Virus record (IMG/VR): IMGVR_UViG_2737471869_000024
Coordinates: 1-25,955 of that record
From: a virus
Taxonomy: Duplodnaviria > Heunggongvirae > Uroviricota > Caudoviricetes
Direction: 5' to 3' (one strand)
Length of the DNA stretch: 25,955 bases
The position numbers and the translations under genes were made by a program. Shown piece after piece: positions 1-21,673 of the stretch (position 1 is the first letter of the stretch; every line of letters starts with the position of its first letter). The notes under the pieces are model-generated. The model did not search any database, had not been told where the DNA came from, and saw only the letters and a list, made by a program, of their open reading frames with translations.

Positions 1-1842
1 ATGACAGTTACAACAAAGTTCAGAAATGACATTAATGGCCTAAGAGCTATAGCTGTTATAAGTGTTGTTTTGTTTCATTTTTCATCTTCTATAATTCCAG
101 GCGGATTTATTGGTGTAGACGTGTTTTTCGTCATATCTGGATACTTGATGACATCAATTATATTCAGAGGGATAGAATCTAATTCTTTTTCGGTTATTGA
201 CTTCCTGAAAGCAAGGGCGAGACGTATAGTTCCTGCTCTCGTTGCAGTTGTATTCCTTACACTGATTATTGGTTATATGTTCTTTGAGCCTATGACATTA
301 CAGATCATAGGAAAACATTCTGCGGCAAGTCTAACATTTATTTCCAATATTATTTATCAGTCTGAATCAGGTTATTTTGATGATACATCAAAGCAAAAAT
401 TTTTACTGCATACATGGTCGCTATCAGTTGAATGGCAATTCTATATAATTTACCCGATAGTGTTACTTGCACTGTCAAAGATATTGTCAATAAAAAATCT
501 TAAAATATTTGTTGTTGCGATTGCTGTTGTTTCTTTTGCATGGTGCATTTACATAACCAGAACTGATCCCGTGTCATCATACTTCAGCATCGCATCAAGA
601 GGTTGGGAAATGATGCTGGGAGGCATTGCTTTTCTGTTCCCGTTTAAAGGTAGCGATAAATCAAGACGAGTTTTGGAATCAGCAGGGCTAATATTGATCG
701 CGCTGTCTCTCGCGTTCATGAGCGAAAGCTTGGCGTGGCCTGGCTACATTGCGTTTATTCCAGTATTCGGGGCCTATATCTGCATTCTTGCTGACAATAA
801 AAGAACCATTCTTTCTGGTAAGATCATTGGAAAGCTTGGGCTCTGGTCCTATTCAATATACTTGATCCACTGGCCGGTAATCGTCTTTTGCGAGAAGACG
901 GGAATTGAGTTAAATATTTTCTGGTATCTGGCTGGTGTAGTGTCAGCCTCAGCACTACTTTATAGCCTTGTAGAGAAGCGTCGTGGTTATGGATGGGGAT
1001 TGCTTTTCTGTTATTGTGTATGTCTCGCAGCCGCTTTGTATGTCAATGTCGACGGGGTAAGTAGTCGCATTAAGAATCCTGATTACCATCTTAATAAAGA
1101 CCTGTTCCGCCGGGCTTACGAAGGACATTTATGGATGCAGCCTGGAGAGAATGTAGACTACTTCAACGCTACAGAAAAAGACTTTGACTACATCATACTT
1201 GGTGACAGCCATGCAAGACACTATTTCGCTTTCTTCAAACAAAGCGGTCTTAAAGTAGCATCGCTAGCTGCGGATGGTTGTAAAGTTACAAAGCATTTTA
1301 TGGGGCCGCTAAACTATTCTGAAAAACTCAGAAAGATTTGCGAAGGAAGATATAAGAAGGCCGTTGAATTCATTAATGCCCATCCTGGCAAGAAAGTCGT
1401 ATGGTTGCAAGCGTGGTATACTGGAAAGGTTGGAAACCCGCTAACGACTGACAATTCTTATAAAAATGATTTCATCAGTGAAATGAAATATTTTCTTGAT
1501 GATATTAAAGGCTCTAACAGCCAGATATATATTGTTGGTGATACCCAGGGAAGCAAGGAAATCATGTATCAATGCCTGGCATCACAAGACCTTCCTATTA
1601 ATAAATTATTCAGAAAATGCAATGAGTTTCAGGATTATATAGAGCCTGCAATGAATAGCAGATTTAAAATATTTGCTGAGCAATATCAAAAAGTTCATTT
1701 CGTTGACCCTAGCCCAGCAATATGCAGTGATGGCAAATGTAGAGTGGTTGATGGAGATATGCCTGTTTACACGGATAACTCTCATCTTACAAAGGTATGG
1801 TCAGTTAAGGTTGGTGAATATATCTTTAGCAAGATAAAGTAG
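1..1842 (+). CDS. O-antigen acyltransferase: N-terminal membrane acyltransferase-3 domain fused to C-terminal SGNH hydrolase domain (OafA/Oac-like lysogenic conversion enzyme)
   Basis: 613 aa ORF. The N-terminal ~350 aa are highly hydrophobic with multiple predicted TM helices and the acyltransferase-3 signature near the N-terminus (NGLRAIAVISVVLFHF). The C-terminal ~250 aa carry a GDSH block (ILGDSHARHY) and a distal D-x-x-H block (TDNSHLT), typical of SGNH hydrolases. The ATG is at window position 1, so no upstream context is visible and the start is unverified. A terminator hairpin follows directly. Confidence 0.8.
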   Translation: MTVTTKFRNDINGLRAIAVISVVLFHFSSSIIPGGFIGVDVFFVISGYLMTSIIFRGIESNSFSVIDFLKARARRIVPALVAVVFLTLIIGYMFFEPMTLQIIGKHSAASLTFISNIIYQSESGYFDDTSKQKFLLHTWSLSVEWQFYIIYPIVLLALSKILSIKNLKIFVVAIAVVSFAWCIYITRTDPVSSYFSIASRGWEMMLGGIAFLFPFKGSDKSRRVLESAGLILIALSLAFMSESLAWPGYIAFIPVFGAYICILADNKRTILSGKIIGKLGLWSYSIYLIHWPVIVFCEKTGIELNIFWYLAGVVSASALLYSLVEKRRGYGWGLLFCYCVCLAAALYVNVDGVSSRIKNPDYHLNKDLFRRAYEGHLWMQPGENVDYFNATEKDFDYIILGDSHARHYFAFFKQSGLKVASLAADGCKVTKHFMGPLNYSEKLRKICEGRYKKAVEFINAHPGKKVVWLQAWYTGKVGNPLTTDNSYKNDFISEMKYFLDDIKGSNSQIYIVGDTQGSKEIMYQCLASQDLPINKLFRKCNEFQDYIEPAMNSRFKIFAEQYQKVHFVDPSPAICSDGKCRVVDGDMPVYTDNSHLTKVWSVKVGEYIFSKIK

Positions 1843-1872: not shown

Positions 1873-3675
1873 TTATATCACCATATATCTGAAGCTTGCT
1901 CCGCCTGCAGCTGGAGAACCTGACTGCGTAGCAAGGACAAGACTTCCGTTTGATTGACTTAAAACATATGCATTTGCTGCTGCAGCTGAAGCATTTGCTG
2001 GGTGAATCACAACTTGTGAATAAGGTGTTATATTTTCATCAACTAGTGTTGCTGAAGCTACACCACTCAATCCATTGAATGACTTCATCACCATCTTTTC
2101 AGTTGCAGAAAGAAGGACGTTTCTTATTGTAAATGTACCTCCTCCAGTTGGGTTTAGCTTTGGAATGAGTGCACTTGTTACGGTTGTAAGATTGCAATTT
2201 GTCAGGACAAGATTATTTTGATAACTGGTAACCTGTGCAATACCTGAATTAACAACAGTGGCATTATTCACGGTGTTATCTGTAGCACCATCCGATTGGT
2301 TAACACCACTTTGTCCTGCAGCATTAATATAAGCTGAAAGAACTCTGGTATTTGCCGATCCTGCCGCAAAGTTAATACCGTTTTGCCCGCAAGTATTAAC
2401 ATAAACACTCTCAATTGTGGATCCTGTTGTTGGCAGTCCAGCATGTCCAAAGTTAATACCGTGGAAAAATTGCGTGTTGGTAGATATCAACTTTCCTGCC
2501 ATGCTCCAGCGGCAATCAAAACCAATGCCTGATGCTGATGCAAGATCCACAGATGCATAAAGCAAACGGTTATAATCACCACTAAATTGAATACCAGAAT
2601 AAGCGTCATCACCAGAAGCGCCTTGTGCATGCCCTAGTGCCGCAATACTTCTATTAGTTTTGTAAATATAAAACGCTTCATGCCCCCACGATTCAATCCG
2701 ATCAACGATAAACTTTGAGTAATGGCACTGATAGAAAAACAGGCAACCAGAGCCGTCATTGCGGATTCCATCTGGTGATGGTGCACTTATAAAAGTGCGA
2801 GGGTAGTAATGGTCATGGACATAATGAGCGTAAAAATCTACGTTCTGACACTCTGTCAGATAGACAAGATGGGTTCCAATCTGTCCTGATTGTCCTGCTT
2901 TATTACCATCAATCTCATTAATGTGAATTATTAGACCAGAGTTATTACCTGCTGCGTAAAGTAATCTGTCAAAGTCGACACATCCAGACGGTAATTTGAG
3001 CTTCCCCTTTACAATCACTTTTTTTGCTGAAGAAAGGTTGAGATTTTTTGCAACGAGAGTAAACCCTTCGGGAACAATCAGCATACCTGTATCGTCAATC
3101 ATCTTCTGAGCTGAGATTGATGATTCAACTTCGCTCACAGCTCCCCAATCTGCAACTGTAAGATTCTCTGCATTTTTTTCATGCTGAGTCCTTTTTACTG
3201 CTCCGGTATAAGGTTGAATAACAGGTATCATTGCATCTCCGTCGCTGATACCTGCACCAATCAAATCTGCAACAGTGTGACCAGGACAAAGACCTATTAA
3301 TGAGGCTCCATCATCACCAGACAACTCCTGTCTTAGCTGATCTGGATCATACTTCAACACGTTTGGATAGTTGAACTGCTGTGTACCATAAGCATCGTAC
3401 ACAGCCATAGAATGGCCTTGCACGGTAACGAATTTGGCAATCTGTCCGTTATATACAGGGTAACCAGCAGCGTTAATGATGATTGGTTGCGAAACAGGAA
3501 CGTGAGAGCCGTCTTCATTCTCCACATAAACCTGAATCTGGTTTTCAGGATTTACCGGGTCAGTGTCAATTTTACCGATATAAATTTTGCCATTGGCTAC
3601 GGCTTTAAAAGAACGCGCCATAGTGAAGAGTTGCGAAGGCATGCTTACCACAACATTTGCGGTGATATCTGTCAT
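1873..3675 (-). CDS. Tailspike protein (P22 gp9-type N-terminal head-binding domain fused to a different receptor-binding/O-antigen-cleaving beta-helix domain)
   Basis: 600 aa. The first ~110 residues ([46 protein letters not shown]...NVLKYDPDQ) closely match the P22 tailspike head-binding domain as I recall it. The remainder is Gly/Ser/Asn/Thr-rich and beta-helix-like but does not resemble the P22 receptor domain. GGAG RBS upstream. Last gene of the virion module. Confidence 0.9.
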
Positions 3676-3776: not shown

Positions 3777-4712
3777 TCAGTAGTTATGTACTGAAGGAGG
3801 TAATTCTTTATTCTTAAGTCTCATCCATGCGGAAAGATTCGTTGGTCCGTCTGGCTCATTGATATCAACATCTCGTGTGTGGTTTATTAAAACGTCTCTC
3901 GCCATTCCGATAACATACGAGAATTCATGACCGTAGTCGTAGCATCTGCCGGAATAGTTCGATTGAATTTGTTTTAGCGCCGGATACAGTTCGCGGAATA
4001 ATGCCTGTGAGCGGTTGGCATAATCCCATAACCATACAAGGCTGTTTGCTTCTTTTGCAGAAAGCTCGTTGGTTCTCTTCTCTTGTTTTCCAATGAACTC
4101 ACCTTCAAGTGGAACTCGAGCTGCAAGTGATAGTGCTTCGGTAAACTGCTCATCACTGATTTCTTTGTACGAACATCCAAAATGGGATTTTAGTGACGAC
4201 CACATGGTGATCATCGCCTTAGCCTGTTTTTCTTTTGGCAGAGACTGACCGCGACTCATGACGAGTTGTTTAATGGCTTCCTGCTGTTCAGTGGTGATTT
4301 TACCCGGCAACGCCTTTTTAGCTTTGCGTGGGTTAAATACATGACCTTTAGTCCAGTAGTCATGCAGCACGCTAAAGCATTCTTCCTGGTACTGAATCAG
4401 TTTATCACGGATGTCAGCACGAACTTTCTCAGGGTTGATGCTGAACAGCCATCCATTTAACTTCTTCAGCGGGATGCATAAAAGCTTACGTAACTTGCCA
4501 TCAGCAGCAACCATAGAGATATCTCTACAGTTGAATTTGTCCTTCATTTTACGCAACTTAACAGATTGACCAGTCCAGTCGATACCAATGTTTTCCACAA
4601 TTTGACGCATCGCTACATAAGTCACTCCGGCAGCCATAGCGGTTAAAATCTGCTGACCATTGAAAGGCACGTAAGAGGTGTTCACTGCTTCTAAAATTGC
4701 TATACTATTCAT
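3777..4712 (-). CDS. ant: Antirepressor Ant (immI region)
   Basis: The protein from the internal ATG at 4712 ([30 protein letters not shown]...) matches the P22 Ant N-terminus as I recall it. GGAG-type RBS upstream of that ATG. The supplied ORF extends 22 codons further upstream, which is probably not translated. Confidence 0.9.
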
Positions 4713-4780
4713 GTTGGTTTTTCTCCACGAATTTACCGACAACCGAAGCCCTGACTGTTCCAGCAGTTGGGGCTTCAACT

Positions 4781-4942
4781 TTACGCGCCAATGCGCCCTT
4801 CCTTCTTAAAGCTGTCCATTACTCTCTGATAAATCTCAGAGTTAACAGACCGACCATTCTCTTCCGCCACCTTGCGTACCAAATCCAATACTTCTTTAGG
4901 CCACCGCAAATTGAACTGCGGCATTTTTCTTGCGCCTTGCAT
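4781..4942 (-). CDS. arc: Arc repressor (ribbon-helix-helix)
   Basis: The 53-aa product from the ATG at 4942 ([53 protein letters not shown]) is near-identical to P22 Arc. GGAG lies 7 nt upstream. Confidence 0.88.
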
Positions 4943-5035
4943 ATTCCACTCCATTCCATTAAATGATAGCACCGTACTACTATTGAAAGCGTACTACTAC
5001 CGTTCTAGCATGTCAACAAATAACAGGAGAGCGAC
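4943..5035. promoter_or_regulatory. Divergent Pant/Pmnt control region with an Oarc-like operator and tandem direct repeats
   Basis: The 21-mer ATGATAGCACCGTACTACTAT (4963..4983) shares both arms (ATGATAG ... CTACTAT) with the P22 arc operator as I recall it. A perfect TTGACA -35 hexamer lies on the minus strand (5011..5016), and a TTGAAA -35-like hexamer on the plus strand (4983..4988). A 10-bp direct repeat CGTACTACTA occurs at 4973..4982 and 4990..4999. Confidence 0.45.
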
Positions 5036-5275
5036 GTGGCTAGAAACGATCCACAATTTAACGTAAGAATGCCAAGTGAAATCAAGCAGCAGCTTACTCA
5101 CATTGCGGCAACAAACAGGCGCTCTATCAATGCTGAAATCATAGCTGCAATACAGCTATGGATTAAGATTAACAGAGAAAAGGTCATACCATCGACATCT
5201 CAAGATCTCACAAAAACAGAGAAGGAAGCAATGGATATTGCAATTAGCGTACTTAAGAAGATTCGAGGCCAATAA
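5036..5275 (+). CDS. mnt: Mnt-like ribbon-helix-helix repressor (divergent variant)
   Basis: 79 aa with a GTG start preceded by AGGAGA. The N-terminus MARNDPQFNVRMPSEIKQQL resembles P22 Mnt (MARDDPHFNFRMP...), but the DNA-contacting beta-strand (His to Gln) and the whole C-terminal half differ. It is divergent from arc, as in P22 immI. Confidence 0.8.
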   Translation: MARNDPQFNVRMPSEIKQQLTHIAATNRRSINAEIIAAIQLWIKINREKVIPSTSQDLTKTEKEAMDIAISVLKKIRGQ

Positions 5276-5622
5276 TGAGCAGTAAGGAGCAATACTTAAA
5301 AGTTACTTTTGAGTCTTTTAGTAATTACTTGACTTCATTCAAAAAAACTTATGTATGCCCAATATGCAGCAATACAAACTGGACTCTTTTAGCACCGGAG
5401 CATCTTAAAAAAGATGATGGTGTTGAAGTTATAGGCCCATCCATACCAGGTAAAAGCTTGCCTAATAATCCTGTTAATCAAGATACTTATAGCAACGATA
5501 GTCTTAACATGGTAGCCATGCAATGCACCACTTGCGGTTTCTTCCACTTTTTTAGTTTAAACAAAGTTAGTGAAAATATCTCTTCTGGAAAATTCGTAAA
5601 GGGTGATGGAGATAATGTTTGA
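5275..5622 (+). CDS. Hypothetical Cys4 zinc-ribbon protein (cargo gene, translationally coupled to mnt)
   Basis: 115 aa. Its ATG overlaps the mnt TAA (TAATG), with GAGG 7 nt upstream. Two CxxC pairs (C28/C31, C84/C87). The region looks AT-rich compared with the flanking structural genes. No recognisable family. Confidence 0.6.
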   Translation: MSSKEQYLKVTFESFSNYLTSFKKTYVCPICSNTNWTLLAPEHLKKDDGVEVIGPSIPGKSLPNNPVNQDTYSNDSLNMVAMQCTTCGFFHFFSLNKVSENISSGKFVKGDGDNV

Positions 5623-6115
5623 CCAACATGTTCACAATAAATCACCTAGTATTTATGGAGATGCTCAAAGCCAACATGAAAACCTTGACTTTGACAAATC
5701 GTTATGGAGTTCAATAGAAAACGCTAAATATTCAGAGTATTACAGACCAACTGGCAGAAATCCGTCAAAGGAACCACAAATATTTAGCCTACAAGAAGAG
5801 CAACACAAAGAAGAAGGTCGTGATACCGTGAAACGTTTAGAGCTATACGGGGTTGCAGTTGCTATCATTGGTTCTATCGTTGCCGCCACATGGACGATTC
5901 GAGGCACTATAGATGATAAAGTTGAATCATCACGACAAGAGCTAACAGGAAACATCCAAACCAGTAAGGCAGAGATAATGGCTACTATCCAAAACAACCA
6001 ATCAGTATTACAGTCAAGGATTGATAACACTGATCAAAAATTAGACTCGACAAACCAATCTCTTTATAAGGTATTGGCTATATTAGAGTCTCAAAAAGAC
6101 AAACGTTCTCAATAG
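5606..6115 (+). CDS. Hypothetical single-pass membrane protein with C-terminal coiled-coil-like domain (cargo gene)
   Basis: About 166-170 aa. Possible starts are GTG 5603, ATG 5606 and ATG 5615, all overlapping the end of the upstream ORF. One strongly hydrophobic segment (LELYGVAVAIIGSIVAATWTI) is flanked by K/R. The C-terminal ~70 aa are Q/S/T/N-rich with heptad-like spacing. Confidence 0.6.
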   Translation: MEIMFDQHVHNKSPSIYGDAQSQHENLDFDKSLWSSIENAKYSEYYRPTGRNPSKEPQIFSLQEEQHKEEGRDTVKRLELYGVAVAIIGSIVAATWTIRGTIDDKVESSRQELTGNIQTSKAEIMATIQNNQSVLQSRIDNTDQKLDSTNQSLYKVLAILESQKDKRSQ

Positions 6116-6136
6116 TTTCTTGATTTATTACCTATA

Positions 6137-6171
6137 GCTGCATGATTGATGTCTGTTGAAAATCATGCAGC
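6137..6171 (+). repeat. Perfect 11-bp inverted repeat (GCTGCATGATT ... AATCATGCAGC) with 13-nt spacer in the intergenic gap
   Basis: Read directly from the sequence; lies between the second and third cargo ORFs, 25 bp upstream of the AAGGAG RBS of the third. No clear U-tract follows. Confidence 0.4.
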
Positions 6172-6195
6172 ATTGATAAATCTAAGGAGATCGGC

Positions 6196-6516
6196 ATGTA
6201 CATATCGCTCTCTACCATTTTTTTCATCTGCTTAGCTATTTGGCTTTTAAGAATATGGCAGGATTGCTCTGTCAGCCATGCTGCTGCGGTGAGAAATAAA
6301 AACGCCCTCATAAAAGAAGCTGAAAACGTTGTCTTATCAATGGATCACCTTTCATGGACCGAGATGACTACAGGGCAACAAGAGGTTTATGAGTGTGCGA
6401 TTGAGCGGTTAAGGCTGCTTAAATCGTACAAAAAGAACCACGCTCCCGACTCATTCCCATTCCTGAAAGAATGGCCGAGATGGTATGACCCGAAAAAAGC
6501 AACCATCAACCGCTAA
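6196..6516 (+). CDS. Hypothetical small membrane-anchored protein (cargo gene)
   Basis: 106 aa with a strong RBS (AAGGAG, 7 nt spacing). N-terminal hydrophobic segment MYISLSTIFFICLAIWLLRIW, either a signal anchor or a signal peptide (possible AxA-like site SHA-AAV). The stop codon lies 8 bp from the convergent gp16 stop. Confidence 0.6.
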   Translation: MYISLSTIFFICLAIWLLRIWQDCSVSHAAAVRNKNALIKEAENVVLSMDHLSWTEMTTGQQEVYECAIERLRLLKSYKKNHAPDSFPFLKEWPRWYDPKKATINR

Positions 6517-6524
6517 CCAACTTT

Positions 6525-8531
6525 TTACTGCTGGGCTTTCTCACTTGAAGCCTGAATTAGAGGTGTAAGAGTTTCAGATACCCGTCTGATCGCTCTATCA
6601 TAAGCAGTACTTCCTTTTGGCGTGTTTGCTAACTTTAGTAATGCGTTCCTCATCGCGCGTGACTCATAGCCCCTGCCAGCCATACCGATACCAGCTCCTA
6701 CTGCCGCAACTTTTGCAAACATTGGATTTGTAACAGACGCAAGAGCTGTTATCAGCGCTGCTGGACCAGCTACCATTTGCCCTGTTAGTGGGCTTGCGGC
6801 AGCAGTAGCTGCCTGTCTAGTGGAATCAAGATATTTCATTATCCCATCAAGCTGTTTCCCATGCTCTCCTCTGAAGAACGTCTCAGCCTGCTTCCGATTC
6901 CTTTTCATTTCATTAATAAACTTCTCAACGCTAAGCTTTCCTGAATCGCTTGTCGCCTTATCCATTGCACGCTGAACAAGTGCTGCTCTAGCATTTTGAC
7001 GCCCACTATCATCAAGCAATCGATAAAGTTGCGCCCTTTCCGCTGGGCTTTGGCTGAATACTAGTTTAGTGACATCTTCTGGCGTTGTTTTACCACTCTG
7101 AATAGCTTTTTGGACACGTGTATTGCTCATCATGTCGTTGAACTTTGCCCAAGAACGATCAACACGCGACATGTTTTGCGCTTCCTTCGCACCTAGTTTT
7201 GCGCCAACCGCTTTTTTCATGTCTGTTGTGTATGCGTTATAAACAGACTGCGCAGCTTTCTCCAGCGTATCTCTATCGACCTCGTCAGGTGCTGCCATAA
7301 AGCGCTTACGTAAGTTTGTACGGTTTTCTCTAGCTAATTGCAGGTTATTTGGACCGCTGGTGATGTCATTTCTAAACTGTTGAAGGACAGAAACAGCTGA
7401 GCGGTCTTGCGATACTCCTGGGCGAGTTAACTTGGAAATCTGCTCATCAATTGCTTTCACTGTTCCAGTGATGTCAACAGGAGTATCCCCCATCAAACTG
7501 ATGATCCTGTCGTACCGCTTGCCAGCAGCCTGAATAAATTGCTGCTGACCACGAGTAGCTGATTGGTAAAGTTGTGCGTCAGATATTCCACCAACATTAT
7601 CGCTAAATGTTCTAACTAAATCTTCCCTGGCCTTTTGCTGTGCATTTCTTATCCCACCTGTTCCGGCTATTGGGATTCGCTCAGCCATAGCTCGTGCTTG
7701 CTTACCAATATTTGTTCCCGGTTCCACAAGATCTGTTGTCATCAGTGGCAAGTTGTTCTGCTTGGCAAAGTCAATCTGAGCTTGTTTTTCAGGAGCAATC
7801 TTACCCATAGCAGAACGAGACACTGCGCTTGCGGTGTTTTCTACACCCTTCAGTACCCCACCAAGACCAGCAGAAATTGCAGTTTGAACTGGATTAACAT
7901 TCTCACCGCCAGCGATCTTAGTGGCACCCTGTAAAGCTAAATCAGTAGCGCCTGATTTTAGTGTTGCACCTACAACAGACGCAGCTCTACCTGCTGGAGT
8001 GAATGCAAGAGCATTTGCCAAGAATGACGTTATATCCTGCGGTGACAAACCAGGCTTGTTAAGTGCATATTCCCCTGAAGGAAGGGTGACTATGGAATTT
8101 CCCTTCTCATCCTTCCGGATTTTCCCGCCAATACTTTGCAGTATTTTCTCCTGTGAAGCGTCGGAACCAAATAGCTGCCCCAATCCAGCACGCAGCGCAT
8201 CAGTGCTTAAGCTATTAAGCTCTGGAGCAGACCCAACATTTTGCAGTCTCTCCATTTCTGGTGTCATTCGGCTTTCACCGGTAACGGCATCGCGCATTGC
8301 AGCACCTAAAACAGCCCCTTGCTCAGCAGAGCGATCTAGTCCTTCCTTCTGCTGAGTGGCAAGCTGTGCATATCCTGATGCAAGTGAGTTGTCTGCTGGC
8401 GATTGCTGAACACCTTGTTGTGTTGGTGCTGACTGACCAGCAAAATACTCATCAATGGCGGCGCCAATATCTTCGGTGCTCGTACCATCAGGAAAGGTAA
8501 ATGTCTTACCGTTTGCAGTAACTTTCATCAT
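6525..8531 (-). CDS. Ejection (internal/E) protein, P22 gp16 homolog
   Basis: 668 aa, last of the three ejection genes in conserved P22 order (7-20-16). Start overlaps the upstream gene stop. Confidence 0.8.
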
Positions 8532-9943
8532 TCCACCGTAAATTGAATGCCTGATTTTGAGGTATATGATCCAACCTGATTCCGTGGTTCTCCTGAAGGT
8601 GTCGAATCTTGTGCTGGCGCTGCGTCAGTATTCATTGACATATACCGCTTAACGGCACTCCCCAATGATTCACCTTTTTTAACATCCAACCCCAATATCT
8701 GACCGCCATTACGCGATTGTCCAGGGTTGCCATTCGCGCTCATCCACTCAGCTTTAAACTCATTAAACTGCGCGTTTCGTCGCTCAAGGTTTGCCATTGC
8801 ATCAAGCCATCTTGCGACCGTCTCAGGGTTATCCATGTCAGTTGGCGCACCCTGACGAACGATCTCAACGTCTTTATCCGTTGCTGGGCCGGGAGGTAGG
8901 AATTTAAGGACCTGACTGTTAACAAGGGCATTTTGGCGAATGCGCAAATCACGCAATGTTGTATCGCTTCCGGTAAGTTTTGCGAACATGTTCTGTGCGT
9001 TACCGAACAAACCTGTCGTTGGTTTTTCTGCTCTGAACTGTTGAGCAAGCGCACTCATAGAATTGGCTGAGTTTGATGATGCTGTAGCATTGTTTACAGC
9101 CGTCTCGATGCCTTTTTCCATGTTTACTGACAGCTTAGGTGCTTCGCTAATCAACTGCTGAGCCTTTTCCTGCGCTTGCTGCATCTTAAACCCGAACTCT
9201 TGCTGATCCAGAGCCAAGCGTTGTGCTGCGATATTGTGCCCAGTCATTGCTGACTGATAGGAAAGGTTTTGCCCTCTCGCCTGAAGTGCCTCGCCAGCCT
9301 GATTGCTGCGGATTGTCTCTGCCAGTCTGCCTCGGTCAATCTCACGACCAGCCATCTTGTCCTGAACAGCAAACGCCTTTTCTGGTCCAAGCGCACCGAG
9401 AGACATAGTAGTCAGCATGTGTGATAGCTGCTCTGGATTCTGGATACCTGTCTGAATCATCCAGTCAGCATTCGCCCCCACGCGATTTAACCTGTCCTTG
9501 TTGTCAGTAATGAATTTACTGTAGGCTTCCGGTCCCTGGGAAAGAGCGACGTTAGCCCTCATGGCTAAATCGCCCATATCGTTGCGTTGCTGCTCATTAA
9601 GACCGGAAAACGCCTGTTGTGCCTGTGCAACAAACGCTGGATTTTCCTGGGCAAACTTAAATAGTCCAGATGGATCACCAGAAGCCCATGCATCAGCGTG
9701 AACCTTATTGAACGCACTAATAGCTTTCTGTTGCTGTTCCTGATTGTAAATATCAGCAACTCCAGCCAGACCACGTAACGCGGTCAGACCAATGTTATTT
9801 GCACCTGAGCGAGCCAGTTCATTGTTTTCGCGGATCAGACCAAGCGTTGCGTTAATGTCGCTTGCCTTTGGCGCATTCTCATTTTGCGTACCGATGCCAG
9901 CCAGAAAACCACCAGAATTAATACCCTGTTGCCACGTAGCCAT
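8528..9943 (-). CDS. Ejection protein, P22 gp20 homolog
   Basis: 471 aa, the size I recall for P22 gp20. Synteny between gp7 and gp16. Confidence 0.8.
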
Positions 9944-9953
9944 TGATTACCCC

Positions 9954-10646
9954 TTAAAACAACGAGCCAAGCAGACCAAGACCGCCGCCGATCGCAGCCC
10001 CCCACGGAGTTGATGAACCAATTAATTTCGCAAGTCCAGCCCCAGCAATAGCACCAGACGCACCTCCGCCAATAGCAGATTGCATTGCTGATGGTCTGTT
10101 GGCATTTGCCGCTGCAAGAGCCGCACTTTGCTGCGAAATCTGACTCATGTTGTTGGCATATGTCTGCCCTGCGTTTGCCTGACCTTGCAGAGCACCAAGC
10201 CCAACGTTTGCCAGATTCTGGTAGTTGTTCATCTGACCAGACAGCCACTGCTGACCAAGCGTTGGTGCGATTGTTGCTAACTGATTACCGGTTGCAGTGG
10301 AACCCAATCCACCTGTTGCTTCCGCTGCCGCCAGACTCTGATAGCGAGCCTGACCAGCAAGATCTTTGTACTGCTGAGAGTTGTAATACTGGTTAAGTGC
10401 CTGACCTTGCCCTTCCAGAGACGATAAGTTCTCGAGGCTGCCGACATACTTATCAGCCAGAGGAGTAAACGGCTTCAGGTTGTTCATGATGGTGTTGAAC
10501 TGCTGATTTTGCAGGTTTGCTGCATACTTCTGAGCTTCTGCTGCATACTTTGCGCTTTTATCAGAGCTGCCACCTTTCCCGCCTTTTTCATGGCACCAAG
10601 GTTCCTCGCCGCGCAGTTTTCTGCCCAGCTTAAATGCATATAACAT
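9954..10646 (-). CDS. Ejection protein, P22 gp7 homolog
   Basis: 230 aa with a Gly/Ala-rich hydrophobic C-terminus. Synteny after gp14. Confidence 0.78.
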   Translation of the reverse strand: MLYAFKLGRKLRGEEPWCHEKGGKGGSSDKSAKYAAEAQKYAANLQNQQFNTIMNNLKPFTPLADKYVGSLENLSSLEGQGQALNQYYNSQQYKDLAGQARYQSLAAAEATGGLGSTATGNQLATIAPTLGQQWLSGQMNNYQNLANVGLGALQGQANAGQTYANNMSQISQQSAALAAANANRPSAMQSAIGGGASGAIAGAGLAKLIGSSTPWGAAIGGGLGLLGSLF

Positions 10647-10648
10647 GG

Positions 10649-11104
10649 CTATCTCCCGTGATTCAGGAAGTCGATTAGTTCTTCGCGCGTGGCGCTGTAA
10701 AAAGTCACGTCATCCACGCCTTTGAAGTATTTCTTGATGGTTCCTACACGCTTAAGGCCAATCATTGCGCAGTACATCTGACCGTGGCGGAATTTGCGCG
10801 CAGCGAACGATGTGACGCACTGAACGGTGGTGTTAGTCAGAATGTATCGCCAGAACGCCAGCCCGATTTCCTTGCTGAATCCACGAACCTCTGGCAGGTA
10901 CATGGCGTGGCAATCGAATGTAAGCGGCTGAATTTCCTGATAGTAAACAATGCCGCCAAACTGACCGTACACGTTAACCTCAAAGTAACGGCATTCAGGC
11001 TTGTAGTCGTATCCATCACCGTTGTTGCTTCCGGCAATAATGTCAGGGTGATTTCCGACTGCTTCTATCAGGTCGATGTTTCGCGTTGGTTTGAACTGAA
11101 TCAT
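10649..11104 (-). CDS. P22 gp14-like virion/assembly protein
   Basis: 151 aa in the gp14 position between tail needle and gp7. Assigned by synteny only. Confidence 0.65.
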   Translation of the reverse strand: MIQFKPTRNIDLIEAVGNHPDIIAGSNNGDGYDYKPECRYFEVNVYGQFGGIVYYQEIQPLTFDCHAMYLPEVRGFSKEIGLAFWRYILTNTTVQCVTSFAARKFRHGQMYCAMIGLKRVGTIKKYFKGVDDVTFYSATREELIDFLNHGR

Positions 11105-11952
11105 TACTGCTCCGCGATTATCTTGATGGTTGTGGCAGTAAACGCCGCACCATTTGACTGAATGGTTAACGTGCTGCCATTTGTGGCAAGAAAGCCGTCT
11201 TTATCCACGCTGAATAACGTAGCTAACAGGATGTTATCGGTCGTTGTCGCCGAGTTGCGACTGCTTACCAGTGTGTCAGGAACAGAGCCGGAAAATGTTA
11301 GTTGCATTGACCTGTTGGCGGTTCCGCTGGGCCACGTCCCGACGATCGACAGCTTGAAGAACAGGGTTTTGTTCTCGTTGAACACAACCATCTTGTTGTT
11401 AACGGTGTCGAAGAATGGTGCCAACGTGCCGGATGACGGCGTGAGCGTTTTCAGCAGGCTAACAAGGTTGGTCGGCGCTGTCGGGATGGTTACAGATACG
11501 CCAGAGTAAACAACCTCTGACTTCTTGCGAGTAGTGGCATACTCCAGAGCATCGATGCGCGTTTCATGGTCTGAAACCTGCGACTCCAGCGACTGAACTC
11601 TGGTATCAAGCGACGCAATATCGCTTTCATTCTGAGTGATTCGTGTTTCATGTTCCTGAAGAGTTGATTCTGCCTGGCTGATTCGCTCCTCATGATTAAC
11701 AAGCGTTGCTTCTGCAGCAGAAATTCGCTGCTCATGGTCAGCGAGAATCACATCCTGCTCATCGTTCCTGACTTGTGCATCATAAGCGCCCTGTCCGGCC
11801 TCGTTGGCCTTGTTAGCCACGTTACCAACATCAGTACCCTGTGCGATAACGTACAGCAGATACGACTGCGAGAAGATATTGCGTGGAAGGATTGATGTGT
11901 CGAGCCGTGTAGCCTGAATGATTACCGGCACATTGAGATTCGAATCCGCCAT
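11104..11952 (-). CDS. Tail needle (P22 gp26 family) with Sf6-type C-terminal knob domain
   Basis: 282 aa. N-terminus [43 protein letters not shown] closely matches P22 gp26; a central heptad-rich coiled coil follows, then a ~100-aa C-terminal extension absent from P22, as in the Sf6 needle. Confidence 0.88.
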
Positions 11953-13370
11953 TACTCAATCCTTATCTGGCAACCAGACAGAGTGACAGGTGACTTCGTG
12001 ATAACGCGCAATTTGAAGCCGACATTTTTCCTGATGCGCCCGACACGCTTCCACAAAACGCGTTTGTCGTAAACGAACGGTTCATTCTGCTCAATCATCT
12101 GCTCACGTCCGTAATTGATGCCGTCAGTGGTTGCAGAGAGAAAAAGGCGGTCGGCGTACTGCGCAACGCCAGTTGACGATTCAACCTCAAGATCAAAACA
12201 TCTGGCGTTCTCAGCTTTGAACAACGGAGTAAACAACAGGTGTTCTTGCTGTAGCCCATACTGGCTGCTGATATCGAACTGCAGTTTCCCGGTCACGGAT
12301 TCCAGCTTATCGCCGCACGTTATCTGATTGCCTTCGTAAATGAAGTCGATAGCGCGGTACACATCGTCATACAAGCCTGTTTTCAGCACACACCATTGCG
12401 GACCATTGGCGCTTGAAGATGCGTCGTACACGAGAACATGGCGCGGAAGGTGGATAATCAGCAACTCATGAGCATCAAAGCGCAGAGACTCCATCACGCC
12501 ATCAGCCAGTTCATCAGCAGTGTAGGAGCGGAGTATTTTCTCAATGCTCGCGCTGGCGATTGGTGACACCTGACCGGAGCCGATGATGTATACAGATGGC
12601 GCACCAGTTGCCGGATTGCTGATAAACGCATACGAATCAGCGAATGGCGTTTTGCAGTAAGTTCCGGCAATGCCTTTCTGCACCATCAGCGATGGTTGTG
12701 CAACATACAAAGCGGCACCAACGGTGGTTGCACCTGTCAGGGAAAAATATTCAATCGTCGATGAACCAAAGCAGACAATGAAGTCTCGCCATGTTCCGAT
12801 TCCGATGATTCCGTCCGGCTGCGATTCTGCCCGATATTGTGCGCTGTAGCGGTCAGGATGCGATTCGTCTCCAAGGTCAGTGATAAACCATGAATCAGTT
12901 CCGTCTTTTGACCACGCATAACGCCCACGTAAGCGCGTAATGTCGCGAACCGAACCTAACTCATACTGCGTGAATCCGCTGTCTGTAGGCCAGTTTGAGA
13001 CGGTTTTAACCGTGCCATCATAACGATACTCGACCAGTTGACCATTAACGCCTACTGCCTGTGATGTCCTACCGTGCGCCATTGATACGCGGCCACTTCC
13101 GGCGACGTCACCGACTTCACTTTCGCCTTTGTAGAGCTTTCCACCACACACACGATAAACAGCATTCTGCGCCATGTTGTACTCGACGCCGCGCGATATA
13201 CCGTTCACATCAGAACGTTTGGCAATGCCCGGGAATGAGCGAAGATATCCGCTGCTGTTGAGTATTTCTTTGGGTGTAGCCAACATATTCACTGGCAGAT
13301 AGTCGATATAGTCAGCGTTTCTAAAGTCTTTGCCGACACCTTTCATAAGCGGAAGTTGCTGAATCGGCAT
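11952..13370 (-). CDS. Tail hub/accessory protein, P22 gp10 homolog
   Basis: 472 aa, the size I recall for P22 gp10. Synteny between gp4 and gp26. Confidence 0.85.
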
Positions 13371-21205: not shown

Positions 21206-21673
21206 TCATTTCAGGCACTGCGTGTTGATGTATTCCTGCAGCGCTCTCAGTGATGTTTGGTCGCTGATGATTCCGGATCTGATACTGAGAACGTTTCGTC
21301 CAGCAACTGGAGAGAGTTCGACGGTGGCATCATTGCCCATGCCGGAGGTGCGGGAGGTTTCGGTTGAGGCTGGCACTTGACACTTTCCTTTGACGAGCAC
21401 CCTGCCACCATTATCAAGCTTGCGCCGAAGAGCATCATTTTCAGCTTTCGCATCAGCTAACTCCTTCGTGTATTTTGCATCGAGCGCAGCAACATCACGC
21501 TGACGCTGCTGCATGTCAGAGATGGTGGCGGTCGCCTGCTTCAGCTCACTGACTTTTTTATCGCGCTGCTCTTTGTAGGCGATTGCGTTATCACGGTAAT
21601 GATTAACAGCCCATGACAGACAGACGATGATGCAGATAACCAGAGCGGAGATAATCGCGGTTACTCTGCTCAT
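21206..21673 (-). CDS. Rz: Spanin inner-membrane subunit Rz
   Basis: 155 aa. N-terminus [31 protein letters not shown] matches lambda Rz (N-terminal TM plus coiled coil). Confidence 0.9.
21247..21453 (-). CDS. Rz1: Spanin outer-membrane lipoprotein Rz1 (embedded in Rz in the +1 frame)
   Basis: Nested ORF with signal peptide and lipobox (LIMVAGC) and a Pro-rich mature region ([11 protein letters not shown]), as in lambda Rz1. Confidence 0.8.

What the first reader, a model, noticed from the sequence alone, without database searches (positions are those of the whole stretch)
5606..6115. Bitopic membrane protein with a probable periplasmic coiled-coil domain, candidate injection blocker
A single ~21-residue hydrophobic helix is preceded by K/R-rich sequence (positive-inside suggests N-in, C-out) and followed by ~70 residues of Q/S/T/N-rich heptad-like sequence. 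A periplasm-facing coiled coil next to genes for the trans-envelope ejection proteins gp7/gp20/gp16 could interfere with the incoming ejection channel. Three closely spaced candidate start codons (GTG 5603, ATG 5606, ATG 5615) overlap the upstream gene.
Basis: inference. Interest (0 to 1): 0.6.

Follow-up and report, generated by a model that had tools for sequence, protein, structure and literature searches.

The report
Unknown two-gene prophage membrane cassette
The flagged gene is real and encodes a single-pass membrane protein with a long helical tail, but it is not the known P22 injection blocker SieA; it is half of an unstudied two-gene cassette that always sits just after a prophage's repressor gene, where phages usually keep genes that shut out rival phages.

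Summary
The ORF is real (best start ATG 5615, 166 aa). It has one transmembrane helix (nt 5843-5899) and a 71-residue S/Q/T/N-rich C-terminal helix. Two points need correction. The flank before the helix is not clearly K/R-rich. The repeat period is 3.65 residues (11-residue repeats), not heptads.

The window is a P22-like prophage, and the gene lies where P22 keeps sieA. It has no similarity to SieA types A or B, SieB or RexB, and no hit in Pfam, NCBIfam, PADLOC or PDB.

New here: the gene is always preceded by, and overlaps, a Cys4 zinc-ribbon gene (5275-5622). The pair always lies directly downstream of a lysogeny repressor: Mnt in P22-likes, CI in lambdoids (the rexAB position), and RacR-like repressors in Rac-like prophages of Escherichia, Klebsiella, Citrobacter and Pluralibacter.

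Nearly all relatives have a conserved in-frame internal start, with a ribosome-binding site, just before the membrane helix. This suggests a long and a short isoform.

Best reading (inferred, untested): a lysogen-expressed two-component phage-exclusion module acting at the inner membrane. A SieA-like injection block remains a live rival.

The parts
4983..5011 (+). Sigma-70-like promoter (TTGAAA-17-TAGCAT) in the arc/mnt divergent control region; probable Pmnt equivalent driving mnt-orf115-orf166
   Evidence: Consensus scan, 9 of 12 matches. It occupies the same place as P22 Pmnt in the annotated P22 record. The direct repeat CGTACTACTA occurs twice around it. Function is inferred.
5036..5275 (+). 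Mnt-like Arc/ribbon-helix-helix repressor gene, first gene of the operon
   Evidence: Pfam Arc PF03869 at 4.8e-13. PGAP calls it an 'Arc family DNA-binding protein'. Its TAA stop (5273-5275) overlaps the ATG of orf115 as TAATG.
5275..5622 (+). orf115: obligate partner gene, a 115-aa Cys4 zinc-ribbon protein with an acidic C-terminal tail
   Evidence: C28, C31, C84 and C87 are invariant in 7 and in 10 homologues. It is 34% identical (E 5e-23) to the 125-aa ORF that precedes the target's relatives after cI. A homologue is present immediately upstream in every homologue locus examined. The AF2 model has low to moderate confidence (mean pLDDT 59) and only generic zinc-ribbon fold matches, none significant. 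It matches phrog_4293, function unknown.
5615..6115 (+). orf166: the flagged gene (alternative upstream starts GTG 5603 and ATG 5606); stop codon at 6113-6115
   Evidence: ORF list. PGAP protein WP_024222613.1 starts at 5615. It matches phrog_24865, function unknown, at 2.8e-116. The identical protein occurs on 760 contigs of E. coli and E. albertii, always named 'hypothetical'.
5615..5842 (+). N-terminal region of the long form (76 residues): variable and predicted disordered, presumably cytoplasmic
   Evidence: pLDDT is below 50 for residues 1-12 and 14-69. Alignment across the family is poor except for a recurrent [FY]-x-P motif near the N-terminus and a short hydrophobic stretch. dN/dS is about 0.8-1.0 in the E. 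coli cI-slot group and about 0.2 in the Klebsiella-type group. In-frame indels keep the frame open.
5828..5830 (+). In-frame GTG (codon 72), next to the position where relatives have a conserved internal ATG with a ribosome-binding site; candidate start of a short isoform of about 95 aa, MKRLELYGVAV...
   Evidence: 29 of 34 relatives have a Met 2-14 residues before the helix (17 at exactly 10), against a 1.9% Met background. In 10 loci the upstream anti-SD duplex energy is -5.4 to -12.8 kcal/mol, within the top 2-15% of codon positions in the same gene and as good as the annotated start. Gene callers used the internal start for the Pluralibacter copy (P0016). In the window the Met is missing (Thr, then GTG-encoded Val) with a weaker AGAAGG 10 nt upstream, so use of this start here is uncertain.
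5843..5899 (+). Single transmembrane helix LYGVAVAIIGSIVAATWTI
   Evidence: KD mean 1.92 with no second candidate. The same single segment occurs in all 34 relatives (KD 1.7-2.9). There is a near-invariant Trp at its C-terminal end and small residues before it.
5900..6112 (+). C-terminal 71-residue amphipathic helix built of 11-residue repeats, ending in a basic tail (KDKRSQ); the most conserved part of the family
   Evidence: AF2 gives a continuous helix with block-mean pLDDT 93-97 over roughly residues 100-160. Periodicity is 3.65. R107 is invariant and W93, I99, E109 and D137 are nearly invariant. The window subfamily carries an 11-residue insertion relative to cI-slot relatives. dN/dS is 0.09-0.25.
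6115..6191 (+). RNA hairpin at the 3' end of the cassette (core stem 6137-6147 with 6161-6171)
   Evidence: MFE is -25.9 kcal/mol, z -2.97 against shuffles. There is no T-run, so the terminator scan does not call it. The outer stem pairs 6115-6121 with 6185-6191, the AGGAG ribosome-binding site of orf106. The mosaic boundary with the orf106 module lies at about 6178. Its role is inferred.

Best explanation
orf166 is the inner-membrane subunit of a conserved two-gene prophage cassette. Its partner is the upstream, translationally coupled Cys4 zinc-ribbon protein orf115. The pair is transcribed together with the prophage's lysogeny repressor (here the Mnt-like gene, from a Pmnt-like promoter), so it is made in the lysogen.

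Most likely it is a two-component phage-exclusion module with Rex- or toxin-antitoxin-like logic:
- The cytoplasmic zinc-ribbon protein senses or restrains.
- The membrane protein is the effector. It is anchored N-in by one helix and oligomerises through its long 11-residue-repeat helix.
- On superinfection the effector is released or activated and compromises the inner membrane or a membrane-bound step of infection.
- A conserved internal start probably yields a short isoform lacking the cytoplasmic N-terminal tail, which could tune or neutralise the long form.

Shown: the gene is real; the architecture; the obligate pairing; the repressor-adjacent position; the conserved internal start codon with a ribosome-binding site; the absence of homology to known systems.

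Inferred: expression in lysogens, topology, oligomerisation, existence of two isoforms, and all of the anti-phage function.
For: Pairing:
- The zinc-ribbon gene is immediately upstream of, and overlapping, the target's homologue in every homologue locus examined.
- The overlaps are TAATG between mnt and orf115, and an 8-nt overlap between orf115 and orf166.

Position:
- The pair is always directly downstream of, and on the same strand as, a lysogeny repressor of unrelated families.
- Mnt/RHH in P22-likes: window, L012, L038.
- S24 CI followed by N, which is the lambda rexAB position.
- Other CI types.
- Short RacR/XRE-type repressors in Rac-like prophages.
- These slots hold known exclusion systems: sieA in P22 (PMC10883804), and rexAB and bstA after cI (PMC8585504, read).
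- The same P22-like slot carries other defence-type cargo, a Panacea-domain pair, in another E. coli strain.
- A promoter-like site precedes mnt, and no terminator-like site lies inside the operon.

Regulated-effector features:
- A conserved internal Met with a ribosome-binding site.
- A variable, disordered N-terminal tail carrying a short conserved motif.
- An acidic tail on the partner.
- The strongest conservation falls on polar residues of the juxtamembrane helix, which suggests a specific interface.
Against: - There is no experimental or expression evidence of any kind.
- There are no PADLOC, Pfam or NCBIfam hits, so the defence role rests on position alone.
- One hydrophobic helix plus a very polar tail is not an obvious pore former, and RexB is polytopic.
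- In this window the internal Met is replaced (Thr, then GTG-encoded Val) and the ribosome-binding site is weaker, so the two-isoform idea may not apply here.
- The N-terminal tail evolves almost neutrally in one lineage (dN/dS about 1).
- Repressor-adjacent slots also carry non-defence cargo.
Confidence: 0.4

Rival explanations
1. SieA-like injection blocker. The protein sits N-in/C-out in the inner membrane. Its helix of about 10 nm projects into the periplasm and interferes with assembly or function of the incoming phage's DNA-delivery conduit, or masks a host inner-membrane factor the conduit needs. No cell death is involved.
For: - It occupies the sieA slot next to the ejection-protein genes in P22-like prophages.
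- It is similar in size to SieA (162-164 aa, inner membrane; PMC10883804).
- The family-wide K+R bias favours N-in/C-out.
- The conserved core is the helix plus the juxtamembrane segment that would face the periplasm.
- Some cI-slot carriers are also P22-like, with P22_portal and Sf6_terminase within 10 kb (L030, L033).
- Other known injection blockers are small membrane proteins: T4 Imm (PMC11436027), and HK97 gp15 and lactococcal Sie2009 (own knowledge).
Against: - There is no homology to SieA A or B and one TM against 3-4.
- It has an obligate cytoplasmic-type zinc-ribbon partner, a cytoplasmic N-terminal tail and an internal start, none of which a passive periplasmic plug needs.
- It is also carried by Rac-like prophages of Klebsiella and Citrobacter. 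Their virion type was not seen here, but they are not obviously P22-like.
- It has no similarity to any ejection, needle or spanin protein of this prophage.
- The topology is not established.
Confidence: 0.25
2. Not a defence gene. The pair is lysogen-expressed cargo with another role, for example modulating prophage induction or immunity, host envelope physiology or cell division (an FtsB/FtsL-like bitopic coiled-coil mimic), or acting as an addiction module that stabilises the prophage.
For: - The tight linkage to repressor genes of several families would also fit a role in lysogeny control.
- The overlapping small-gene pair, with an acidic-tailed first product, resembles toxin-antitoxin operons.
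- The architecture (short N-tail, TM, coiled coil) resembles bacterial divisome proteins (own knowledge).
- No defence-library hit was found.
Against: - Linkage to unrelated repressor types argues for shared expression rather than a specific regulatory partnership.
- The slots used are the classical exclusion-gene slots (PMC8585504).
- The cassette is rare and patchy, in 41 of 5426 complete E. coli genomes and 2 of 50,697 phage records. That pattern is typical of accessory defence cargo rather than core lysogeny functions.
Confidence: 0.25
3. Spurious or decaying ORF with no function.
For: - It is annotated only as 'hypothetical protein' everywhere.
- The N-terminal third is poorly conserved.
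Against: - Purifying selection acts on the TM+C-terminal part (dN/dS 0.09-0.25).
- 50 diverged cluster representatives share the architecture.
- Synteny with the partner is conserved across genera.
- There are invariant polar residues.
Confidence: 0.01

Closest known systems
Phage P22 SieA (superinfection exclusion A; types A, B, C; Leavitt et al. 2024, PMC10883804)
   Same: - Same genomic slot in P22-like prophages: between the gene-16 homologue and the mnt/arc/ant/tailspike block, on the mnt strand.
- Similar length (162-164 against 166 aa).
- A membrane protein, presumably expressed from the prophage.
   Different: - No sequence similarity to type A or type B, although those two are readily linked to each other.
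- One TM helix instead of 3-4.
- It lacks the FxRYPxEAxxFNK motif.
- It always comes with a zinc-ribbon partner, whereas sieA alone is sufficient.
- It also occurs after cI and after RacR-like repressors, outside the immI region.
Lambda RexA/RexB abortive-infection pair
   Same: - A two-gene cassette placed directly after the repressor gene and before PL/N in relatives.
- Gene order is a soluble component first and a membrane component second.
- Expression in the lysogen is presumed, from the repressor's promoter (for rexAB: PMC8585504; PMC11436027).
   Different: - No homology and no Pfam hit.
- The components are much smaller (115 and 166 aa).
- The membrane subunit is single-pass with a long helical tail rather than polytopic (RexB's four helices are from own knowledge).
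SieB/Esc of P22, lambda and Rac (own knowledge: Ranade and Poteete 1993)
   Same: - A prophage exclusion gene from which an in-frame internal start gives a shorter product that modulates the full-length one. This parallels the conserved internal start found here.
- In Rac-like prophages the cassette lies between the racR-like repressor and ydaE/kilR, roughly where K-12 Rac carries sieB (Rac map from own knowledge).
   Different: No Pfam match of any kind, including none to a SieB model, for the window protein or for any of the 34 relatives. The pairing with a zinc-ribbon gene has no counterpart in SieB.
Small stand-alone membrane exclusion proteins: T4 Imm (PMC11436027), and HK97 gp15 and lactococcal Sie2009 (own knowledge)
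   Same: Small prophage- or phage-encoded inner-membrane proteins, some single-pass with an extracytoplasmic domain, that stop DNA entry. The lactococcal ones sit in the lysogeny module.
   Different: - No sequence relationship was tested or expected.
- Those act alone.
- None has the long 11-residue-repeat helix or a coupled zinc-ribbon partner.
i-spanin Rz, and the divisome proteins FtsB/FtsL (architecture only)
   Same: N-in single-pass anchor followed by a periplasmic coiled coil.
   Different: - This prophage has its own Rz (PF03245, 21206-21673) in the lysis cassette.
- There is no similarity between it and orf166.
- The context differs (immunity region, lysogen expression) and no o-spanin partner is present.
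- The FtsB/FtsL resemblance is from memory and was not tested.

Membership tests
SieA (P22 superinfection exclusion A, types A/B/C) | Detectable sequence homology to a SieA type | tested here: not met
   BLASTP against P22 SieA gave E 4.3 and against E. coli HS1 type B SieA E 0.21. The positive control, P22 SieA against HS1 SieA, gave E 9e-23 at 28% identity. Type C was not tested.
SieA (P22 superinfection exclusion A, types A/B/C) | Three (type A) or four (types B, C) predicted transmembrane helices (PMC10883804) | tested here: not met
   One hydrophobic segment only; the second-best 19-residue window has KD -0.05.
SieA (P22 superinfection exclusion A, types A/B/C) | Conserved motif FxRYPxEAxxFNK near the C-terminus (PMC10883804) | tested here: not met
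   The motif is visible in the P22/HS1 alignment and absent from the orf166 sequence.
SieA (P22 superinfection exclusion A, types A/B/C) | Located between the gene 16 and gene 9 homologues of a P22-like prophage | tested here: met
   Window layout compared with annotated P22 and phage N7.
SieA (P22 superinfection exclusion A, types A/B/C) | Blocks DNA injection by P22-like phages (no K+ efflux, no lysogenisation) | not testable with these tools
   Needs infection assays.
SieB (Pfam 'Super-infection exclusion protein B') | Match to the Pfam family model | tested here: not met
   No such hit for the window protein at E up to 1, nor for any of 34 relatives at E up to 0.01.
Lambda RexAB | Homology to RexA or RexB; RexB polytopic | tested here: not met
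   No Pfam, NCBIfam or PADLOC hit for either gene. The membrane subunit has one helix.
Lambda RexAB | Two-gene cassette between cI and PL/N, co-oriented with cI | tested here: met
   This is true of the relatives (L003-L008, L017-L021, L030-L033). In the window itself the equivalent repressor is Mnt.
i-spanin (Rz) | Pfam Phage_lysis match, location in the lysis cassette, and a paired o-spanin | tested here: not met
   orf166 has no Phage_lysis hit. The prophage's own Rz is at 21206-21673. The two proteins show no similarity.
Known anti-phage defence systems (PADLOC-DB v2) | Match to any component model | tested here: not met
   Zero hits at E up to 1 for orf115, orf166 and orf106.
Type II toxin-antitoxin-like module | Second gene toxic when expressed alone and neutralised by the first | not testable with these tools
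   Only the operon form is seen: small overlapping genes, with an acidic tail on the first product.

The most novel reading that the evidence does not exclude
The orf115/orf166 pair is a previously undescribed two-component superinfection-exclusion or abortive-infection system of enterobacterial lambdoid prophages. It would consist of a Cys4 zinc-ribbon sensor or regulator and a dual-start, single-pass membrane effector with an 11-residue-repeat helix. It travels as a unit between the three classical exclusion slots: sieA in immI, rexAB after cI, and the sieB neighbourhood in Rac-like elements.
Probability: 0.5. Interest if true: 0.7.

Novelty: new variant of a known kind. Interest (0 to 1): 0.52.

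Why it matters
About two thirds of sequenced P22-like phages lack sieA (PMC10883804), and what fills that slot in them is mostly unannotated. This cassette is one such filler. It also turns up in the rexAB position of other lambdoid prophages in four enterobacterial genera.

If it excludes phages, it adds a new, very compact (about 850 bp) membrane-based system to the prophage defence repertoire. That would bear on phage therapy and on phage typing of E. coli, including Shiga-toxin-producing lineages in which the cassette is found.

It would also give a second, unrelated handle on how DNA delivery or membrane integrity is policed at the inner membrane. Its obligate zinc-ribbon partner and the conserved internal start would make it a simple model for how such effectors are kept harmless in the lysogen.

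If it is not a defence system, it is still a conserved lysogen-linked membrane module of unknown role.

Tried and rejected
- SieA membership was rejected on sequence, helix number and motif.
- SieB, RexB, holin and spanin families: no Pfam hits for the window protein or 34 relatives, only scattered sub-threshold coiled-coil noise (XhlA in 2 of 34, best E 2.7e-4).
- NCBIfam and PADLOC returned nothing meaningful.
- A PDB sequence-profile search gave nothing better than E 0.009, a coiled-coil segment of WRB.
- Mimicry of this prophage's ejection, needle or spanin proteins: no similarity by phmmer or a family HMM.
- Fold search with the zinc-ribbon model found no significant match in PDB or BFVD (best E 0.79 and 0.006), only generic zinc ribbons. 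The model is low confidence, and the AFDB library was unavailable.
- No fold search was run on orf166 itself, because a single long helix matches everything.
- Cleavable signal peptide instead of an anchor: judged unlikely by inspection, because the hydrophobic stretch is 19-23 residues and the -1/-3 positions are not consistently small across the family.
- The first genome-contig scan failed for lack of a conserved block. The next scan found nothing, and the last found only Pluralibacter plus a dubious hit.
- The cI-slot version was not found in complete E. coli RefSeq genomes by megablast or blastn.
- A viral-contig scan for the distant member P0046 found nothing.
- Literature: no paper mentions the protein accessions or PHROG ids, and the DefensePredictor supplements do not list them. 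The HK97 gp15 paper is not held, and the sieB/esc search returned nothing useful.
- The virion type of the Klebsiella and Citrobacter carriers could not be seen within the 10-kb flanks.
Full report
**1. What the window is**

The window is 99.8% identical over 5000-6600 to Escherichia phage N7, a Lederbergvirus (P22-like). It is 100% identical over 5275-6520 to a prophage of E. coli W284.

The local gene order mirrors the P22 immI region:
- tailspike, 1873-3675 (-)
- ant, 3777-4778 (-)
- arc, 4781-4972 (-)
- Mnt-like Arc-family repressor, 5036-5275 (+)
- orf115, 5275-5622 (+)
- the flagged ORF, 5603/5615-6115 (+)
- orf106, 6196-6516 (+)
- ejection-protein genes on the minus strand, at the gene-16, gene-20 and gene-7 positions

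gp7 and gp20 are confirmed by Pfam. The ORF at the gene-16 position resembles P22 gp16 only in its first 34 residues. In P22 the same interval holds mnt, orf59a and sieA.

**2. Checking the observation**

The ORF and its three candidate starts (GTG 5603, ATG 5606, ATG 5615) are there, and all overlap the upstream gene's TGA at 5620-5622. ATG 5615 is best supported. PGAP uses it, the PHROG profile starts there, and the N-termini of relatives align with it. The N7 authors chose 5606.

There is a single strong hydrophobic segment, residues 77-95 of the 166-aa form (KD 1.92). No second one exists.

The flank before it is not really K/R-rich: 4 K/R but 5 D/E, against 3 K/R and 4 D/E after the helix. 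Across 34 relatives there is a modest positive-inside bias, 2.4 against 1.5 K+R, with the N-side higher in 25. N-in/C-out is therefore favoured but not established.

The C-terminal 71 residues are 41% S, Q, T and N. AlphaFold2 models them, together with the TM segment, as one continuous helix at high confidence, while residues 1-68 are disordered.

The hydrophobic period is 3.65, not 3.5, in the window protein and in 33 of 34 relatives. These are 11-residue repeats. The window subfamily also carries an 11-residue insertion relative to cI-slot relatives.

**3. It is a real, conserved gene of unknown family**

- Pfam, NCBIfam and PADLOC give nothing above noise. PHROGs gives only phrog_24865, function unknown.
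- The word-indexed search of 5.8 billion proteins found six clusters.
- The exhaustive profile search of 1.84 billion representatives found 50, of which 26 are below 1e-10. Nearly all are 148-177 aa with the same layout. The weakest hits are generic 11-mer-repeat proteins.
- A profile search of PDB sequences found nothing, and Pfam scans of 34 members gave only sporadic coiled-coil noise.
- dN/dS of the TM+C-terminal part is 0.09-0.25.
- The identical protein is on 760 contigs, all named 'hypothetical'.
- The cassette is in 41 of 5426 complete E. coli genomes and in 2 of 50,697 phage records.

**4. It is not SieA**

- P22 SieA and the type B SieA of E. coli HS1 match each other at 9e-23, with the published motif visible. 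Neither matches orf166 or orf106.
- SieA has 3-4 TM helices and suffices on its own (PMC10883804). orf166 has one.

**5. The new facts: an obligate partner and a fixed address**

Relatives about 45% identical over the TM and C-terminal part lie in lambdoid prophages directly after the S24-type CI repressor and before N. Each is preceded by an overlapping 125-aa ORF.

That ORF is homologous to orf115 (34% identity, E 5e-23). Its four cysteines (C28, C31, C84, C87) are invariant, so it is a split Cys4 zinc ribbon with an acidic tail. Its AF2 model is weak, and fold searches return only generic, non-significant zinc-ribbon matches.

Every homologue locus examined had the zinc-ribbon gene immediately upstream, and the pair lay just downstream of a repressor on the same strand:
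- Mnt in P22-likes: window, L012, L038
- several CI types: L003-8, L017-22, L026, L030-33, L035-36, L039
- short RacR/XRE-type repressors divergent from YdaS/YdaT-like genes in Rac-like prophages of Klebsiella and Citrobacter, with recET/kilR/ydaE further on: L028-29, L034, L041-47

Carriers include Escherichia coli, E. albertii and E. fergusonii, Citrobacter, Klebsiella, Raoultella and Pluralibacter. Some cI-slot carriers are P22-like in their virion genes (L030, L033).

In the window, the mnt stop overlaps the orf115 start (TAATG), and the orf115 stop overlaps the orf166 start. A promoter-like site lies upstream of mnt, and no terminator-like site lies within the operon.

The slot is a mosaic hot spot. 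19 further E. coli genomes keep only orf106 next to gene 16, with other cargo upstream, including a Panacea-domain pair.

**6. A conserved internal start**

- 29 of 34 relatives have a Met 2-14 residues before the TM helix, 17 of them at exactly 10 residues, against a 1.9% Met background.
- In ten loci with DNA, the sequence upstream of that codon binds the anti-Shine-Dalgarno sequence at -5.4 to -12.8 kcal/mol. That is in the top 2-15% of positions in the same gene and matches the annotated start.
- Gene callers sometimes use this start (P0016).
- The residues before the Met vary but are G/E/D-rich, meaning purine-rich codons.

I infer a short isoform of about 95 aa: a basic N-tail, the TM anchor and the helix. 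The long form adds a disordered tail of about 70 residues that carries a recurrent [FY]-x-P motif.

That tail is under purifying selection in one lineage (dN/dS about 0.2) and nearly neutral in another (about 1).

In the window the Met is replaced by Thr followed by GTG-encoded Val (5828), with a weaker AGAAGG 10 nt upstream. Use of the internal start here is therefore uncertain.

**7. Mechanism**

All of what follows is inference from anatomy and address. The slots concerned hold sieA (injection block), rexAB and bstA (abortive infection), and are transcribed with the repressor in lysogens (PMC10883804; PMC8585504).

I favour a two-component exclusion module with a cytoplasmic zinc-ribbon regulator or sensor and a membrane effector, possibly tuned by a short isoform (confidence about 0.4). 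The reasons are the obligate soluble partner, the cytoplasmic tail and the internal start. A passive plug needs none of these, and they echo RexA/RexB, toxin-antitoxin pairs and SieB/Esc.

The conserved core would face the periplasm, and a 71-residue helix spans about 10 nm (standard 1.5 A rise per residue). A non-defence role is also possible (0.25).

**8. Novelty**

There is no homology to any described system and no literature on it. The kind of element, lysogen-expressed exclusion cargo beside the repressor, is well known. I rate it a new variant of a known kind, of moderate interest and directly testable.

Noticed in passing
window 6196-6516 (+): orf106 is a 106-aa protein with an N-terminal hydrophobic anchor (MYISLSTIFFICLAIWLLRIW). 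It lies directly against the stop of the gene-16 homologue and matches phrog_10450, function unknown. It is a separate mosaic module: 19 more complete E. coli genomes carry only window 6178-6520 with different cargo upstream. It is unrelated to SieA A or B, and it is another candidate prophage membrane protein.
   Followed up: partly
window 6115-6191 (+): A stable RNA hairpin follows the orf166 stop (-25.9 kcal/mol, z -2.97; core 11-bp stem 6137-6147 with 6161-6171). Its outer stem pairs the nucleotides just after the stop with the AGGAG ribosome-binding site of orf106. This could couple or occlude orf106 translation. It has no T-run, so it is not a classical terminator.
   Followed up: partly
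window 1-1842 (+): ORF with an AT3 acyltransferase domain fused to an SGNH domain (PF01757 at 1e-29, PF19040 at 3e-26), next to the tailspike gene. It is probably an O-antigen acetyltransferase, that is, a lysogenic-conversion gene that changes the receptor of this kind of phage.
   Followed up: partly
window 4960-5035: The arc/mnt divergent control region holds a promoter-like site (TTGAAA-17-TAGCAT, 4983-5011) flanked by a direct repeat of CGTACTACTA (about 4973-4982 and 4991-5000). These are probably operator half-sites for the Arc- or Mnt-like repressors.
   Followed up: no
window 6525-8531 (-): The protein at the gene-16 position (668 aa) matches P22 gp16 only over its first 34 residues (88%) and has no Pfam hit. 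This prophage therefore carries a very different type of this ejection protein from P22.
   Followed up: partly
L011 2277-3144 (E. coli UTAK-1, NZ_CP157165.1): In another P22-like prophage remnant, the interval upstream of orf106 holds a Panacea-domain gene and a neighbouring 139-aa gene (a PanA-type toxin-antitoxin pair) instead of the cassette. This supports the view that the slot is a defence or accessory hot spot.
   Followed up: no
L038 4358-4657 and 4661-7141: In a diverged P22-like element without arc/ant, the cassette is followed by another small ORF (99 aa) with a hydrophobic segment and a coiled-coil-looking tail. Next comes an 826-aa protein at the gene-16 position whose N-terminal part looks like a lytic transglycosylase by eye.
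   Followed up: no
L042-L047 (Klebsiella/Citrobacter prophages), around 9400-12000: In Rac-like prophages the cassette lies between the RacR-like repressor and ydaE/kilR/recET. This is about where E. coli K-12 Rac carries sieB (Rac map from own knowledge).
   Followed up: partly
P0034, P0039, P0040, P0043, P0045 (weak hits): Unrelated small proteins are built from tandem 11-residue repeats of the type xELTGxIDxxR, some with one membrane anchor. The C-terminal domain of orf166 belongs to this wider, little-described class of 11-mer repeat helices.
   Followed up: no
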